Counted from the stretch's first letter, positions 12,914 through 17,141 are shown. The stretch is 24,000 nt of DNA from Saprospiraceae bacterium (GCA_022841745.1 JALHQW010000069.1:8353-32352), one strand, 5' to 3'. Numbers and translations: made by a program. The notes: generated from the sequence alone by a model not told the origin.

Positions 12914-14995
12914 ATGTCAGAATCAGAATCCTACCAAGACTGGAACGAGGACATTTTCTCTTCCTCCACCAATAGGCTGCTAACGGAAATGCAACGATTC
13001 ACCGAAGGGGCTGACCTGTTGCAGTTGCTGGAGATACTCTTCAAAATACACAAAGAGTATGGCACCCATTCCATCCCCCCTGGCAATCCCTATTTGGCGT
13101 TGATACAGTTTTTGCGTCAACAGAAAACCTTTTTGAAACTATCAAAATATGAGAGCAGGGAATGGGCAGAAAAGGTATTGGCCATCACTTCGGTTCCCCA
13201 GAACTTCCCGGACATCAACGGGAGGATGTTCCTATTGGCTGCCTTGTTTTCGGAATTTGATGAAATCAACCAGCAATTGAGCCAAGATCCTGAATGGGGC
13301 ATTCTGTGTGGGACATTGACAACGCAATTGGAGGCTGAACTTTTGAAAGAAAAGGAAATTGACTTTCCAGTTTTATTGTCAGACCAAGGGCTTGTGCTGC
13401 GAAACGCAATCCTCTCTTTGCCGGAAGAAAAAAAATGGGAGGACCACGATTCGCTGGTACACACCAAGAACCTCAGCGATGGCCCCACAAAAGATGATGC
13501 GCTTTCCCGCAGGACTTTGGCGCAGTACCTGGCGAAGCGGCTGCGGCATATTTACCACCGTGACATTGCCACAGGGCAGCAAAAAGCCTTTTTCATGCAT
13601 ATTGATGGGGCCTGGGGGTCTGGCAAATCAACTTTGCTCGGCTTTTTGCAGGATGCGTTAGAAGACAAGGCCCCGCAAGATGATAAAATTGAAGACAATC
13701 AAAAATCGCAAGGTGAATGGGTTGTGGTCAATTTCAATGCCTGGGAGTACCAACGGTTAGACCAGCCATGGTGGTTTTTAATGAAAACGGTTTATAAGGA
13801 AGCCCTGCTCACCTTGCGCAAGCGCAGCTTCCATCGTTGCGCCAGCTTGTGGCTAACTGAAATGTTTTGGCGGCTGAACCCAAAAGGGCGTTATTTTCCG
13901 ATCGCAATAATTGCCTTGATAATCTTTGTATTTGCGGTATATCATGGTGCATCTTCGGCATCCACGCTTGGGGAAATCCCATTGGTTGGCACCTTGTCAT
14001 TCTTGTTTTTTATATGGTCCTCTGCCAAAACAATTGGTTCGAGCCTTTTGTCGGGTTCGGCAAAGGCGGCCCAGGATTTTGTGGAACAAAACAGTTCCAA
14101 CCCCATGCAAAAATTGACGGAGCATTTTAGGAACTTAATAAAGGAGATTGAATACCCCACCGCTATATTTATTGACGACCTCGACCGCTGCAACGAGGAC
14201 TATGGCATCAAATTATTAGAGGGCCTACAGACGATATACAAGAATGTGCCAGTCGTATATGTCGTGGCGGCGGACAGGAAATGGTTGAGCAAGATGTATG
14301 AAGATGAATACAGCCTTTTCGCGCCCGTTATCACAAAACCAGCCAAGCCTTTTGGCCTTGTATTTTTGGATAAAACTTTTCAATTGATTGTTGAACTGCC
14401 CGAAATATCAGCAACCCAAAAGGCCCTGTACTGGAGCAAATTGTTGAACGTTTCGGACGAAGCCCACGCGGAGGAGGAAAGCGACGTAATATCAAAAGTT
14501 GAAAAAGAAACGAACCTGCAAGGGCAGCTCGCTATTTTGGACAGCACAATCGGCATCAGGGCGCAGCAGATTGTCAGGGAACAAATCGTCAATTCCATTT
14601 CTATACAAGAAGAAGAAAAAGTGCTGGAGCACAGGTTGCAAAAATTCATAGACTTGATAGCACCCAACCCCAGGGCCATGAAGCGGCTCATCAATGATAT
14701 CAGCACGGCCAAGGCCATGACCATCCTTTACAACCAAAGAGTTGAAGAAGACCAATTGATATTGTGGACCATCCTGAAACTGCAGTACCCCGCATTGGCT
14801 CAAATGGTTTGGGAGGAACCTGAAAAATTAGCGCTCTTGCTTTCCGATGCAATGGATAACAAGGAATATTTTGACCTGCTGAAAAAAACAGAAGTAAGGC
14901 AGCTTTTTGAATACTCAGTTAACGGCAAGACCATTAGGATTGACGAAGATTTTGTTAGGAAAATGAGGTTTCAGGAAGTTGAAAAAAACTTATAG
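12914..14995 (+). CDS. KAP-family P-loop NTPase with two transmembrane helices inserted in the NTPase domain
   Basis: Walker A is GAWGSGKST (13607-13633). The block VVVNFNAWEYQRLDQPWWFLMKTV is KAP-typical. Two hydrophobic helices are present, YFPIAIIALIIFVFAVY and IPLVGTLSFLFFIWSSA (about 13890-14040). Walker B is IFIDDLDRC (14171-14191). A ~190-aa helical N-terminal extension precedes the NTPase domain. GC is lower than in the core genes (28/60 at 13921-13980). Confidence 0.85.
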   Translation: MSESESYQDWNEDIFSSSTNRLLTEMQRFTEGADLLQLLEILFKIHKEYGTHSIPPGNPYLALIQFLRQQKTFLKLSKYESREWAEKVLAITSVPQNFPDINGRMFLLAALFSEFDEINQQLSQDPEWGILCGTLTTQLEAELLKEKEIDFPVLLSDQGLVLRNAILSLPEEKKWEDHDSLVHTKNLSDGPTKDDALSRRTLAQYLAKRLRHIYHRDIATGQQKAFFMHIDGAWGSGKSTLLGFLQDALEDKAPQDDKIEDNQKSQGEWVVVNFNAWEYQRLDQPWWFLMKTVYKEALLTLRKRSFHRCASLWLTEMFWRLNPKGRYFPIAIIALIIFVFAVYHGASSASTLGEIPLVGTLSFLFFIWSSAKTIGSSLLSGSAKAAQDFVEQNSSNPMQKLTEHFRNLIKEIEYPTAIFIDDLDRCNEDYGIKLLEGLQTIYKNVPVVYVVAADRKWLSKMYEDEYSLFAPVITKPAKPFGLVFLDKTFQLIVELPEISATQKALYWSKLLNVSDEAHAEEESDVISKVEKETNLQGQLAILDSTIGIRAQQIVREQIVNSISIQEEEKVLEHRLQKFIDLIAPNPRAMKRLINDISTAKAMTILYNQRVEEDQLILWTILKLQYPALAQMVWEEPEKLALLLSDAMDNKEYFDLLKKTEVRQLFEYSVNGKTIRIDEDFVRKMRFQEVEKNL

Positions 14996-15074
14996 CTTCA
15001 TCAAAAAATTCATAATATTACTCCAAACCGAACAAAGATTCAAAACCATTTCCAATCATCATATAACAACCACC

Positions 15075-17141
15075 ATGTCAACCACATCAAATTCAACCAC
15101 CTACACCTACCGCAACGGCAAAAAAATAACGTTGTATAAAAAGGACGATGAGTTCGTGTCCCGTGCGGCACCAGAAGTCTTGGAAACCACGGGCGCTACC
15201 TTTGTCGAAAAAGTATCGCCCGCTTCTACCCGTATGCACGTGGCTCCTGCCGACTTGGAGGCCGTCATGCTTCAAAGCCGGAAAATAGCCCCGACGCACC
15301 ATGCCTATTACCAAGCGGAGACCGACCAATCGTTCGACATCACTGACCGAATTCTGGTGACCTTCAAGGCCGCCCCTAAGGATGCGGAACTGGACGCCTT
15401 CATCGGCAAGTATGCGCTGAGGCAGTTGTCCAAGTACAGCGAGGTTGATTTCCTGTTTCAACTGACCAATGACACGGGCATGAACCCAGTGAAGCTCATC
15501 GTTGACATCACCGAAAATGTACCAGCCATCGCCGTCGCTGAGCACGACCTCAACATCAAGGTAAAAAAATACGACCTGGTGCTGCCCACCGACCCCAAAT
15601 ACCTCAACCAATGGCACCTGCATACGCATACGACGCCAACTGCGGACTTTGACCCACGCTGTTCGGGTAGGTGCGAAGAGGCTTGGCAGTTGCTGGGCAA
15701 TTTCGGAGCGACGGACGTTGTTGTTGGCGTTTCGGACGATGGCTGCAAGTTGAACCACCCCGATTTTGATGGCACCAACAAGTTTGCCGCTTGGGGCTAT
15801 TTTGAGGGAAGCACCTTGGTGACGGTCAATGATATTGATGCCGATCCGAACAAGATGTACGAAATTGGCTCAAACCACGGCACTTCTTGCGCTGGTGTAA
15901 TCGCTGGAGAGGCCGATGGGGTGCTAACCGTTGGGGCAGCCCCCGATTGCCGCCTTTTGCCCATCAAATGGCAGGGCATAGGCAGCGGCCTGAACATCAG
16001 CGACAGCAAGCTGATGACCGCCCTGAACTATATCGCCGACAAAGTGGACGTATTTTCAAATTCATGGGGAAGCTCGCCGGAGATGGACCTCTCCTCGAAC
16101 GTACTAAACCGGATACGAACCTTGTCCGAAACAGGTGGCCGGCGAGGTAAGGGCATTATCTTCCTATGGGCAGCCGGCAACGAGAACTGCCCCATCCAAC
16201 ATACCGGCACATTGAACATTCCCTTCGACGATGGTGTCCAAGTAGTTGCGGGTGGCCTGCAATGGGTCGGCGTTGACACCAGCCAAGTGTTTTCCCACAA
16301 CCTGACCACCATACCCGGGGTCATGCACATCGCCGCACTGGCAAGCAATGCGCAGCGTAGCCATTACTCGAACTATGGCAATGCCATTTCCCTGTGCGCT
16401 GCTTCCGACAACGGACACAACTACCACCGGCTTACCCTAAGAGGCTTGGGCATTGTGACCGCAGATGGCGAAAGCCCCTTGTTCACCGACCGATTTGGCG
16501 GAACTTCCAGCGCCACGCCACTGGTGGCAGGTATCGCAGGCTTGATTATCAGCGCCAACCCGAACTTGACTGCGCTGGAAGTCATCAATATCTTGGAACA
16601 AACGGCCAGCAAAGACCTAAATTTCACGCCGTACCCCAAGACGCCGCCCGCTTCCTTCGATATGGATACTTCATGGGATATATCGCCAGTAGCTCCCCAC
16701 CACACGGGCGCATTCATCAATATAGGCAGCGCAAACGGCACTTGGAGCCCCTGGTTCGGCTTTGGAAAAGTGGATGCCCTCAAGGCAGTGGAAAAAGCGC
16801 TTTCACTTATTCCAGCCACCCAGCCTTCCATTAAAATCAAGTCGGCACTCATCAATCCGGTTGGCTCGGACACGAACAAAGAAACGGTGACTTTGAAAAA
16901 TACCGGCACTTCGGCAGTTCTGATTGATGGCTGGGTATTGAGCAACCAAACCAATAAAAAACAGGTGCTCAGTGGGACGATCCCCGCCAACGGCGAGCTG
17001 ACCATCCACCTCATCAGTAGTAGTATCAGTTTGACGAACAAGGGCGGTACCATCAAGCTCTCGAATGGCAACGGGACCGAGTTTGATCGGAAAACCTATA
17101 CGAAATCACAGGTTATTATTGGCTTTGAGACAATTTTTTAG
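15075..17141 (+). CDS. Subtilisin-like serine peptidase (S8) with a propeptide-like N-terminal region, no signal peptide, and a C-terminal lamin-tail domain (LTD)
   Basis: The catalytic residues appear in D-H-N-S order: VGVSDDGCKLNHPDF (Asp codon 15735-15737), HGTSCAGVIAG (His 15876-15878), LWAAGNENC, and GGTSSATPLVAGIAGL (Ser 16506-16508). The C-terminal IKSALINPVGSDTNKETVTLKNTGTSAVLIDGWVLSNQ...IPANGELTIHL (about 16830-17138) matches the LTD pattern. ATG 15075 (MSTTSNST) is preferred over 14979, which overlaps the KAP gene. The N-terminus is hydrophilic. Confidence 0.85.
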   Translation: MSTTSNSTTYTYRNGKKITLYKKDDEFVSRAAPEVLETTGATFVEKVSPASTRMHVAPADLEAVMLQSRKIAPTHHAYYQAETDQSFDITDRILVTFKAAPKDAELDAFIGKYALRQLSKYSEVDFLFQLTNDTGMNPVKLIVDITENVPAIAVAEHDLNIKVKKYDLVLPTDPKYLNQWHLHTHTTPTADFDPRCSGRCEEAWQLLGNFGATDVVVGVSDDGCKLNHPDFDGTNKFAAWGYFEGSTLVTVNDIDADPNKMYEIGSNHGTSCAGVIAGEADGVLTVGAAPDCRLLPIKWQGIGSGLNISDSKLMTALNYIADKVDVFSNSWGSSPEMDLSSNVLNRIRTLSETGGRRGKGIIFLWAAGNENCPIQHTGTLNIPFDDGVQVVAGGLQWVGVDTSQVFSHNLTTIPGVMHIAALASNAQRSHYSNYGNAISLCAASDNGHNYHRLTLRGLGIVTADGESPLFTDRFGGTSSATPLVAGIAGLIISANPNLTALEVINILEQTASKDLNFTPYPKTPPASFDMDTSWDISPVAPHHTGAFINIGSANGTWSPWFGFGKVDALKAVEKALSLIPATQPSIKIKSALINPVGSDTNKETVTLKNTGTSAVLIDGWVLSNQTNKKQVLSGTIPANGELTIHLISSSISLTNKGGTIKLSNGNGTEFDRKTYTKSQVIIGFETIF

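What the first reader, a model, noticed from the sequence alone, without database searches (positions are those of the whole stretch)
12914..17141. KAP transmembrane NTPase plus cytoplasmic subtilase-LTD gene pair inside the toxin array: candidate two-gene conflict/defence module or eCIS accessory system
Seen: the two genes are co-directional and 79 nt apart. The first is a KAP P-loop NTPase with two TM helices inserted between Walker A and Walker B and a ~190-aa N-terminal helical domain. The second is an S8 peptidase with an intact D/H/N/S catalytic set, a propeptide-like N-terminus, no signal peptide and a C-terminal lamin-tail domain. The pair is bounded upstream by the DUF4157 relic and downstream by the 16-bp hairpin, and its GC is lower than the core. 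Established: KAP NTPases with membrane inserts are a recognised conflict-associated family, and as I recall a single-gene anti-phage system of this type was named Tmn. NTPase sensors paired with protease effectors recur in prokaryotic immunity. LTDs usually occur in secreted or envelope proteins, so one on a signal-less protease is odd. I know of no description of a KAP + S8-LTD pair, or of such a pair inside an eCIS cargo island. Alternative readings are (i) an abortive-infection-type defence module in a variable island, (ii) a membrane NTPase and protease that mature or release eCIS cargo, for example by cleaving the repeated [ILV]-Q-x-K leader sites, or (iii) additional cargo.
Basis: partly seen in the sequence, partly recalled or inferred. 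Interest (0 to 1): 0.75.

Follow-up and report, generated by a model that had tools for sequence, protein, structure and literature searches.

The report
Membrane NTPase and protease in eCIS
A membrane-anchored KAP NTPase gene and a signal-less furin-like protease gene sit together in the toxin slot of a phage-tail-like injection system (eCIS) operon; the pair recurs in related operons, but each gene also occurs there alone, so they are two optional add-ons of unknown role and not an obligate two-gene machine.

Summary
Window 12914-14995 encodes an intact KAP P-loop NTPase with a private helical N-domain and a two-helix membrane hairpin between Walker A and B. Window 15075-17141 encodes an intact, signal-less furin/kexin-like pro-subtilase with a C-terminal lamin-tail domain. 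They lie between the eCIS tape-measure gene and the AAA ATPase gene, among DUF4157 cargo genes.

The same KAP-then-S8 pair occurs in at least three other eCIS operons (Dyadobacter type). It is not obligate: closely related operons carry KAP only (L002) or S8 only (L173).

Full-length KAP relatives outside eCIS lie in defence-island-like contexts (MkoA-like helicase plus integrase; PD-T4-1 plus TIR). S8 relatives outside eCIS are stand-alone genes, including copies on Bacillus megaplasmids. Neither protein has the disordered loading leader or DUF4157 domain of known eCIS cargo. The [ILV]-Q-x-K motif does not track S8 presence.

Best reading: two separable accessory genes lodged in the recombining cargo slot and co-expressed with the eCIS. 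KAP is a defence-type membrane switch. S8-LTD is a recruited cytoplasmic protease. I found no published description. Function is inferred, not shown. New variant of a known kind; moderate interest.

The parts
9753..11243 (+). eCIS tape-measure protein gene (context; upstream boundary of the cargo slot)
   Evidence: Pfam CIS_TMP PF19268, E 2.1e-127
11317..12681 (+). DUF4157 (eCIS_core) cargo gene with M35 aspzincin C-terminal domain (context)
   Evidence: Pfam eCIS_core E 2.4e-29 and Aspzincin_M35 E 1.2e-9
12786..12824 (+). Relic of a DUF4157 cargo leader (reads IQPKLTIGAPDDQ) in the 232-nt spacer upstream of KAP; a recombination scar
   Evidence: 39 nt, 97% identical to 11422-11460; also matches 17483-17507
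12914..14995 (+). KAP family P-loop NTPase, 693 aa. Helical N-domain aa ~10-170. Walker A aa 232-239. Membrane hairpin aa ~324-374. Walker B aa 418-422. Helical C-terminal region.
   Evidence: Pfam KAP_NTPase E 2.6e-27; alignment of 32 orthologues; hydropathy; AF2 model pLDDT 81.7; best solved-structure match is RdrA of RADAR
13880..14035 (+). Segment encoding the two transmembrane helices inserted between Walker A and Walker B
   Evidence: Kyte-Doolittle 19-mer means up to 2.3; AF2 helices 327-343 and 358-378; sequence shown
15075..17141 (+). Signal-less furin/kexin-like pro-subtilase with C-terminal lamin-tail domain, 688 aa. Two propeptide-like alpha/beta domains aa 9-164. Catalytic domain aa ~205-575. 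LTD aa 586-688.
   Evidence: Pfam Peptidase_S8 E 1.1e-38 and LTD E 2.1e-8; D221/H268/N369/S478 invariant; PDB sequence best match furin E 8e-19; Foldseek matches to pro-subtilisin, furin and Kex2
17217..17260 (.). 17-bp perfect inverted repeat (hairpin) downstream of S8-LTD; no U tail, terminator function unproven
   Evidence: Self inverted match and fold dG -23.3; not called by the terminator scan
17332..19065 (+). Next DUF4157 cargo gene (context)
   Evidence: Pfam eCIS_core E 1.6e-30
21266..22720 (+). eCIS AAA+ ATPase (Afp15/Alg15-like; context; downstream boundary of the cargo slot)
   Evidence: Pfam AAA E 1.4e-28; 42-58% identical to the AAA genes closing the related operons

Best explanation
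SHOWN:
- The two genes are intact and reside in the cargo slot (tape-measure gene to AAA ATPase gene) of a Cytophagales-type eCIS operon.
- The same KAP-then-S8-LTD arrangement recurs in related operons.
- Each gene is independently present or absent there.

INFERRED (family and origin):
- KAP belongs to a small, rare orthogroup. It combines a private N-terminal helical domain, a KAP NTPase with an inserted membrane hairpin, and a helical C-terminal region.
- This is a defence/conflict-type membrane NTPase switch, because its other full-length members lie in defence-island-like contexts.
- S8-LTD is a cytoplasmic, autoprocessing furin-like protease. It was recruited once from a widespread, strongly conserved, stand-alone, signal-less protease family.
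- Both genes entered the slot by recombination at the repeated DUF4157 leaders. The leader relic upstream of KAP is the scar.
- Both are transcribed with the eCIS genes.

INFERRED (most likely working):
- In the producer cell, KAP sits in the inner membrane with its NTPase on the cytoplasmic side.
- It senses a trigger through its helical N- or C-terminal regions, oligomerises, and uses NTP hydrolysis to perturb membrane or ion homeostasis. PifA and Tmn-type proteins work this way.
- The protease acts on cytoplasmic substrates.
- The two may cooperate when both are present, but neither requires the other.
For: Context:
- CIS_TMP, eCIS_core and AAA flank the pair.

Recurrence of the pair in eCIS operons:
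- L003, L005 and L007 (uncultured Dyadobacter) carry it with 8-78 nt gaps.

Separability:
- L002 is TMP-KAP-2084 aa toxin, with 18-nt and 4-nt gaps and no S8.
- L173 is TMP-S8-2082 aa toxin, with no KAP.
- The giant toxin is 93% identical between L173 and L003 and 80-82% identical to that of L002.
- L006 and L092 have KAP next to DUF4157 or AAA remnants without S8.
- L171/L172 have S8 inside a DUF4157 array, with no KAP within 10 kb.

Specificity:
- About 155 generic KAP loci show no S8 or eCIS neighbour, with one exception, L052.

KAP relatives outside eCIS:
- L175: MkoA-like helicase (E 1.5e-86) plus an integrase.
- L093: PD-T4-1 (E 1.2e-75) plus a TIR effector (E 2.4e-43); the KAP itself carries an N-terminal DUF4062 fusion.
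- The KAP N-domain occurs in only 14 clusters among 1.84 billion representatives; every full-length one scanned carries a KAP domain.
- KAP-domain proteins were shown experimentally to be anti-phage (PMC13552941).

S8-LTD:
- The eCIS copies form one clade, sister to stand-alone Dyadobacter copies.
- Catalytic residues are invariant.

Insertion scars:
- A DUF4157 leader relic lies upstream of KAP, and KAP has low GC.
Against: - No experiment bears on function.
- Tight operonic packing in the Dyadobacter-type loci (4-41 nt gaps) fits an eCIS-linked role at least as well as a passenger defence gene, which would normally need constitutive expression.
- Both genes have stayed in eCIS operons whose baseplate proteins are only 35-40% identical. 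That argues for selection within the eCIS context.
- S8 stand-alone relatives are not in defence islands.
- The KAP tree is an unsupported NJ tree. The eCIS copies fall in at least two clusters mixed with non-eCIS copies, so the direction and number of transfers are uncertain.
- Only about ten eCIS loci with either gene could be read.
Confidence: 0.5

Rival explanations
1. Dedicated eCIS accessory machinery. The membrane NTPase triggers or times producer-cell lysis and particle release, or docks assembly at the membrane. The protease matures cargo or structural proteins in the cytoplasm.
For: - Both genes occupy the same position, directly after the tape-measure gene, with 4-41 nt gaps in four operons. 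This implies co-transcription.
- They are retained across eCIS lineages with 35-40% identical baseplates.
- No lysis cassette is visible in the window.
- KAP/YobI-type membrane NTPases are known to collapse membrane or ion homeostasis (PMC13001434).
- A membrane protein (CisA) is needed for firing of the Streptomyces CIS (title and abstract of PMC12237407).
Against: - Both genes are dispensable. L173 lacks KAP and L002 lacks S8, yet the operons are otherwise intact.
- The well-studied AlgoCIS loads cargo with only the AAA+ protein and an N-terminal leader; no KAP or S8 is mentioned.
- LTD is not enriched in eCIS operons in Geller et al. (5 operons, q 0.34).
- The [ILV]-Q-x-K motif does not correlate with S8.
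Confidence: 0.2
2. Obligate sensor-effector defence pair. KAP senses infection and activates the S8-LTD protease, which kills or arrests the cell.
For: - Adjacency and order are conserved in at least four operons.
- KAP NTPases fused to proteases exist among relatives at about 30% identity: trypsin in P0111, CHAT in P0092.
- Non-eCIS KAP orthologues lie in defence islands.
Against: - KAP-only and S8-only operons with clean junctions exist among close relatives.
- The closest non-eCIS KAP orthologue pairs with a helicase instead.
- The S8 family is overwhelmingly stand-alone and never next to KAP outside eCIS.
- PADLOC gives only weak, generic hits.
Confidence: 0.15
3. Additional eCIS payloads: one or both proteins are delivered into target cells as toxins.
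For: - The genes lie in the cargo slot.
- S8-LTD has no signal peptide, as expected of cytoplasmically loaded cargo.
- Peptidases are among predicted eCIS toxins (PMC11297309).
Against: - KAP has two transmembrane helices.
- Both proteins are folded from about residue 9-10. They lack the disordered N-terminal leader that AlgoCIS cargo requires, and they lack DUF4157.
- They lack the PFFQ...GD.YEQEAD leader shared by the neighbouring cargo genes.
- S8-LTD is nearly as conserved as its stand-alone relatives, unlike diversifying toxins.
Confidence: 0.1

Closest known systems
KAP family P-loop NTPases (PF07693; PifA, QatA, and the KAP-fusion anti-phage proteins of PMC13552941)
   Same: NTPase core with Walker A and B. 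Membrane helices inserted within the NTPase domain. Accessory helical regions. Relatives in defence islands. Best solved-structure match is the RADAR ATPase RdrA.
   Different: It has a private N-terminal helical domain found in only 14 clusters of 1.84 billion representatives. It lies inside an eCIS operon. It scores far below the QatA equivalog cut-off (71 against 600 bits), and no QatBCD neighbours are present. The PifA match covers only about 57 profile positions.
Tmn (YobI-family transmembrane NTPase, single-gene anti-phage system)
   Same: [quoted passage not shown] This gives a plausible analogy for a membrane or ion-homeostasis output.
   Different: There is no hit to a PADLOC model named Tmn and no Pfam YobI-ATPase hit for the window protein. 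Tmn has its NTPase at the N-terminus, whereas here a ~190-aa domain precedes it.
Proprotein convertases of the kexin/furin type (S8B) and bacterial P-domain subtilases
   Same: Best PDB sequence matches are furin and kexin. The PTDPxY..QWHL motif marks the start of the catalytic domain. The DDG catalytic Asp context is shared. A pro-region precedes the catalytic domain and a C-terminal beta-sandwich follows it. Paralogues about 60% identical over the N-terminal ~580 aa carry a true P-domain.
   Different: There is no signal peptide. Two propeptide-like domains are present. An LTD replaces the P-domain. The acidic S1/S4 pocket residues of furin are not clearly conserved, so dibasic specificity cannot be claimed.
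eCIS cargo regions with DUF4157 toxins (AlgoCIS Cgo1/Cgo2; EATs of Geller 2021 and Danov 2024)
   Same: The genes lie between the tape-measure and AAA ATPase genes among DUF4157 proteins. The same S8-LTD neighbour is listed, without comment, next to a 2087-aa DUF4157 protein of Dyadobacter ginsengisoli in a supplementary table.
   Different: Neither protein has the disordered leader or DUF4157, and neither family is discussed in the eCIS literature searched.

Membership tests
KAP family P-loop NTPase (PF07693) | Match to the family profile above the curated cut-off | tested here: met
   96.3 bits against a cut-off of 20, E 2.6e-27
KAP family P-loop NTPase (PF07693) | Intact Walker A and Walker B with transmembrane helices inserted in the NTPase domain | tested here: met
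   GAWGSGKS 232-239, IFIDD 418-422, hydrophobic hairpin ~324-374; invariant in 32 orthologues
Tmn (YobI-family anti-phage NTPase) | Match to a PADLOC model named Tmn or to Pfam YobI-ATPase (PF20693) | tested here: not met
   No model named Tmn among the PADLOC hits at E<=0.01; no PF20693 hit at E<=0.01
Tmn (YobI-family anti-phage NTPase) | Protection against phage, dependent on Walker A | not testable with these tools
   Needs heterologous expression and phage challenge
QatA (Qat system ATPase) | Equivalog score and QatB/C/D neighbours | tested here: not met
   NCBIfam NF041923 gives 71 bits against a cut-off of 600; the neighbours are DUF4157 and S8 genes
PifA | Full-length similarity to PifA | tested here: not met
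   The PADLOC PifA hit (E 6e-11) covers profile positions 15-71 of 720 only
Subtilase (peptidase S8) | Profile match and catalytic D/H/S plus oxyanion N | tested here: met
   133.7 bits against a cut-off of 21.8; D221, H268, N369, S478 invariant
Kexin/furin-type proprotein convertase (S8B) | Closest catalytic-domain similarity to furin/kexin | tested here: met
   Furin E 8.3e-19 and kexin E 1.5e-11 are the best PDB sequence matches; PTDPKY..QWHL aligns with furin PTDPKF..QWYL
Kexin/furin-type proprotein convertase (S8B) | P-domain (PF01483) after the catalytic domain | tested here: not met
   Pfam finds LTD, not P_proprotein; P-domains are present in paralogues
Kexin/furin-type proprotein convertase (S8B) | Acidic S1/S2/S4 pockets giving cleavage after basic residues | tested here: inconclusive
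   The D222 equivalent of furin D154 is kept; other pocket positions are not clearly aligned. The basic K-V-K-K site before PTDP is variable across homologues.
Lamin-tail domain (PF00932) | Profile match above cut-off; beta-sandwich fold | tested here: met
   35.0 bits against a cut-off of 34.3 (marginal); confident beta-strand domain at aa 586-688
eCIS lumen cargo (AlgoCIS definition) | Disordered N-terminal loading sequence, usually followed by DUF4157 | tested here: not met
   Both proteins are modelled as folded from residue ~9-10. There is no eCIS_core hit and no PFFQ leader.
Secreted protease (Sec or T9SS substrate) | N-terminal signal peptide; T9SS C-terminal domain | tested here: not met
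   No hydrophobic segment in the first 480 aa. The conserved N-terminus has no leader in 33 homologues. No Por_Secre_tail or CHU_C hit.
Obligate two-gene system | The two genes always co-occur | tested here: not met
   KAP-only L002, L006, L092; S8-only L173 (and L171/L172 within 10 kb); stand-alone copies of each gene

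The most novel reading that the evidence does not exclude
An immune-type membrane KAP NTPase, with or without the furin-like protease, has been domesticated as an optional eCIS release or maturation module. Expressed from the eCIS operon, it would sense assembled phage-tail-like particles or loaded cargo through its private helical domain. It would then collapse the producer's membrane or ion homeostasis, timing lysis and particle release. The protease would process cytoplasmic or cargo proteins. This would link abortive-infection machinery to the unknown release step of Bacteroidota eCIS.
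Probability: 0.15. Interest if true: 0.8.

Novelty: new variant of a known kind. Interest (0 to 1): 0.5.

Why it matters
- How eCIS particles are released, and what the non-toxin genes in their cargo regions do, is largely unknown. A recurrent, operon-embedded membrane NTPase and a cytoplasmic furin-like protease are concrete, testable candidates.
- There is a cultured host: Dyadobacter ginsengisoli DSM 21015 carries S8-LTD in its eCIS cargo region. Whether it also carries KAP was not determined.
- The result also shows that the cargo slot behaves like a recombining island. It captures conflict-type genes besides toxins, which matters for toxin-prediction pipelines that treat everything in the slot as payload.
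- The KAP orthogroup (rare, with a private N-domain and defence-island relatives) is a candidate new anti-phage protein family.
- The signal-less furin-like S8 family is 54-60% identical between Bacteroidota and Bacillus megaplasmids and has no known function. That is an open question in its own right.

Tried and rejected
- **Genome-collection scan with the full KAP alignment.** The patterns were too generic. Only one true orthologue (L007) came back among 80 loci. The remainder served as a negative background.
- **Metagenome scan with an orthogroup-specific motif.** Only five orthologues were returned; the rest were generic KAPs.
- **Viral-contig scans for both proteins and phage-genome tblastn.** No relatives of KAP were found. 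For S8 there were only distant hits at 24-25% identity.
- **Rfam on the window and on the long 5' spacers of stand-alone S8 genes.** Nothing was found.
- **Sigma-70 promoter and terminator scan.** Uninformative, and not suited to Bacteroidota promoters.
The [ILV]-Q-x-K motif is present in DUF4157 leaders whether or not S8 is encoded.
- **Dibasic specificity from the furin alignment.** Not inferable.
- **Whole-chain Foldseek of the KAP model.** It recovers only the NTPase core (RdrA, TM-score about 0.23). The fold of the N-domain remains unassigned.
- **Look-up limits.** The P0009/P0126 contig and the region more than 10 kb upstream of S8 in L171 could not be read.

Full report
**1. What the window is**

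All large ORFs run on the + strand.
- 9753-11243 is a contractile-injection-system tape-measure protein (CIS_TMP, E 2e-127).
- 11317-12681 and 17332-19065 carry the eCIS_core/DUF4157 domain.
- 21266-22720 is an AAA ATPase.
- The three large upstream proteins have no Pfam match except carboxypeptidase-regulatory-like (CarboxypepD_reg) hits in the third. They are 35-40% identical to the proteins that precede the tape-measure gene in related loci.

The finding therefore lies in the cargo slot of an Afp/PVC/AlgoCIS-like eCIS operon. The nearest named relatives are in Dyadobacter, order Cytophagales.

**2. The observation**

It is confirmed almost point for point.

KAP gene:
- It matches KAP_NTPase.
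- Walker A is GAWGSGKS (aa 232-239) and Walker B is IFIDD (aa 418-422).
- A two-helix hydrophobic hairpin lies between them at about aa 324-374.
- The AlphaFold model (pLDDT 81.7) gives a confident helical N-domain (aa ~17-167) and helices at 327-343 and 358-378.

S8 gene:
- It starts at ATG 15075. All 33 homologues begin M-(few residues)-YTYRNGKK, so the TTG 14979 extension is spurious and the gap to KAP is 79 nt.
- D221, H268, N369 and S478 are invariant.
- There is no N-terminal hydrophobic stretch.
- The N-terminal 165 residues form two alpha/beta domains.
- The whole model matches pro-subtilisin, ProN-Tk-SP, furin and Kex2.
- By sequence, furin and kexin are the best solved relatives.
- The LTD match is marginal (35.0 against 34.3 bits), but it coincides with a confident beta-sandwich.

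Flanks:
- The upstream DUF4157 relic (12786-12824, reading IQPKLTIGAPDDQ) is real.
- The 17-bp hairpin (17217-17260) is real.

Corrections:
- Only KAP has reduced GC (0.457). S8 (0.533) matches the core.
- The hairpin has no U tail.

**3. Neighbourhood survey**

*KAP orthologues in eCIS operons.* These are full-length, including the N-domain, and 47-58% identical to the window protein.
- L002: TMP-KAP-2084 aa DUF4157-WD40-AAA.
- L003, L005 and L007: TMP-KAP-S8-LTD-~2085 aa DUF4157-WD40-AAA.
- L006: after two DUF4157 genes.
- L092: abutting a decayed AAA remnant.
- Sources.
- Gaps in the Dyadobacter-type operons are 4-41 nt, which implies co-transcription.

*S8-LTD in eCIS operons without KAP.*
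- L173: TMP-S8-2082 aa DUF4157-WD40-AAA.
- L171/L172: inside a DUF4157 array, with no KAP within 10 kb.
- Sources.

*How close the contrasting operons are.*
- The giant toxin is 93% identical between L173 (S8 only) and L003 (both genes).
- It is 80-82% identical to that of L002 (KAP only).
- Single-gene gain or loss has therefore happened recently, with clean junctions.

*Outside eCIS.*
- KAP orthologues at 39-49% identity are stand-alone (L094, L106, L174) or lie beside defence genes.
  - L175/L176: an MkoA-like helicase (E 1.5e-86) plus an integrase.
  - L093: PD-T4-1 (E 1.2e-75) plus a TIR effector (E 2.4e-43).
- S8-LTD or S8-P-domain relatives at 57-61% identity are stand-alone in ordinary chromosomal contexts (L087, L088, L090).
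- S8 relatives also occur on Bacillus cereus and B. thuringiensis megaplasmids (54-58% identity, flanked by IS elements and an integrase) and on a Chondrinema plasmid.

*Background.* About 155 generic KAP loci show no S8 or eCIS neighbour. The exception is L052, where a frameshifted DUF4157 remnant follows a different KAP.

**4. Phylogeny (NJ trees, no support values)**

- All eCIS-embedded S8-LTD copies form one clade, sister to stand-alone Dyadobacter copies. This suggests one recruitment.
- The eCIS-embedded KAPs fall into at least two clusters interleaved with non-eCIS copies.
- The KAP N-domain is found in only 14 clusters among 1.84 billion representatives. Every full-length one scanned carries a KAP domain.

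**5. What this means for the three readings offered**

*(i) Obligate two-gene defence module.* Not supported as obligate, for the reasons in section 3. A facultative partnership remains possible.
- Order and adjacency are conserved across eCIS lineages with 35-40% identical baseplates.
- KAP-protease fusions exist among more distant relatives (trypsin in P0111, CHAT in P0092).

*(ii) Cargo maturation at [ILV]-Q-x-K.*
- The motif is a generic feature of DUF4157 leaders.
- It is present with KAP only (L002, L006).
- It is absent from the giant toxin of the S8-only L173.
- Furin-like pocket residues are not clearly conserved, so specificity cannot be inferred.

*(iii) Cargo.*
- AlgoCIS work shows that loading needs a disordered N-terminal leader and the AAA+ protein (bioRxiv 10.64898/2026.05.27.728243).
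- Both proteins here are folded from about residue 9-10.
- They lack DUF4157 and the shared PFFQ...YEQEAD leader.
- KAP is a membrane protein.

**6. Best explanation**

The two genes are separable accessory genes living in the recombining cargo slot.
- The repeated DUF4157 leaders provide homology for cassette exchange. The leader relic directly upstream of KAP, KAP's low GC and the clean presence/absence junctions fit this.
- KAP is most likely an immune-type membrane NTPase switch. The support is family membership, defence-island relatives, RdrA as the nearest solved structure, and experimental anti-phage activity of KAP-domain proteins in PMC13552941.
- S8-LTD is a cytoplasmic furin-like pro-protease recruited from a conserved stand-alone family.
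- Its LTD sits where paralogues have a P-domain. It probably serves the same structural role rather than extracellular binding (inference).
- Whether the genes work for the eCIS (release or maturation) or merely ride in it cannot be decided from sequence. The tight operonic embedding keeps the accessory reading alive at about 0.2.

**7. Comparison with known systems**

- The KAP protein is a member of the KAP family (all three features tested are met).
- It is not Tmn: there is no PADLOC hit named Tmn and no YobI profile hit. Tmn is now classed in the YobI family.
- It is not QatA (71 against 600 bits, no Qat neighbours).
- It is not PifA-like beyond the P-loop.
- The protease is a subtilase of furin/kexin affinity, but it lacks the P-domain and a signal peptide.
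- I found no paper describing KAP or S8-LTD genes in eCIS operons.
- The only trace is an uncommented neighbour annotation ('Peptidase_S8,LTD,PD40') beside a 2087-aa DUF4157 protein of Dyadobacter ginsengisoli DSM 21015, in a supplementary table of Danov et al. 2024.

**8. Verdict**

- Observation: confirmed.
- Interpretation: partly supported. The pair is recurrent and eCIS-embedded, but it is not obligate, it is not cargo, and the proposed cleavage motif gains no support.
- Novelty: new variant of a known kind. A KAP conflict NTPase with a private N-domain and a furin-like protease appear as optional residents of eCIS operons.
- Interest: 0.5. This is a concrete, testable lead on eCIS accessory biology and on a rare KAP orthogroup, with no functional evidence yet.

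Noticed in passing
L177 (Bacillus thuringiensis plasmid pIS56-328, locus 7977-9719); L178 (Chondrinema litorale plasmid, locus 7971-10469); L087, L088, L090: The signal-less S8 core (two pro-like domains plus catalytic domain) is 54-61% identical across Bacteroidota, Proteobacteria, Chloroflexi and Bacillus megaplasmids. Its C-terminal domain is swappable: none (the ~580-aa Bacillus copy), LTD or P-domain. In B. thuringiensis it is flanked by IS elements and an integrase; in Chondrinema it follows a SusC/SusD pair. The family is strongly conserved, patchily distributed and has no known function.
   Followed up: partly
L052 11700-12480 (Candidatus Neomarinimicrobiota, SCKJ01000010.1): A different KAP NTPase (36% identical to the window protein) is followed directly by a frameshifted, stop-interrupted DUF4157 remnant (VQPKFTVSQTGDKYVQEAD... 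and a DUF4157 core in another frame). Upstream lie a DUF6519 giant protein and a Peptidase_G2 protein. This is a second, independent KAP-DUF4157 juxtaposition in another phylum.
   Followed up: partly
L175/L176 10001-14136: The closest non-eCIS KAP orthologue (49% identity) is followed after 23 nt by an SF1 helicase with a strong MkoA (Mokosh) match (E 1.5e-86) and then, in L175, by a tyrosine integrase (L176 ends before that point). This is a candidate KAP-plus-helicase two-gene defence system on a mobile element.
   Followed up: partly
L093 2367-12657: A KAP orthologue with an N-terminal DUF4062 fusion lies beside a PD-T4-1 homologue (E 1.2e-75) and a TIR effector protein (E 2.4e-43). This is a defence island.
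   Followed up: partly
L092 198-2528: The KAP gene runs straight into the 3' half (residues 290-483) of an eCIS AAA ATPase gene that carries an internal stop. This is a decayed or rearranged eCIS locus, or an assembly chimera.
   Followed up: partly
window 19062-20060 and 20084-21238: Two ORFs without any Pfam or NCBIfam match share the proline-rich 'PFF' leader of the DUF4157 cargo genes but lack DUF4157. They are likely further cargo. GC drops to 0.35-0.37 across about 18000-20000, which suggests recently acquired toxin modules.
   Followed up: no
L087 9526-10000; L088 9695-10000; L090 9495-10000: Stand-alone S8 genes are preceded by unusually long (300-500 nt) non-coding spacers. No Rfam family matches them. 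LytTR-type regulator genes lie just downstream in L087 and L088.
   Followed up: partly
window 17217-17260: A perfect 17-bp inverted repeat (T8-GGGGTGAA ... TTCACCCC-A8) has no U tail in either orientation. It is not a canonical intrinsic terminator and is not repeated elsewhere in the window.
   Followed up: partly
window 22814-23584 (+) and 22889-23986 (-): These are overlapping antisense ORFs. The minus-strand one is a real gene (DUF5916, E 2e-18), marking the end of the eCIS operon. The plus-strand ORF is probably spurious.
   Followed up: partly
L002, L003, L005, L173 (genes after the giant DUF4157 protein): The Dyadobacter-type operons carry a conserved ~290-aa WD40 beta-propeller gene between the ~2085-aa DUF4157 toxin and the AAA ATPase gene. 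It is absent from the window.
   Followed up: no
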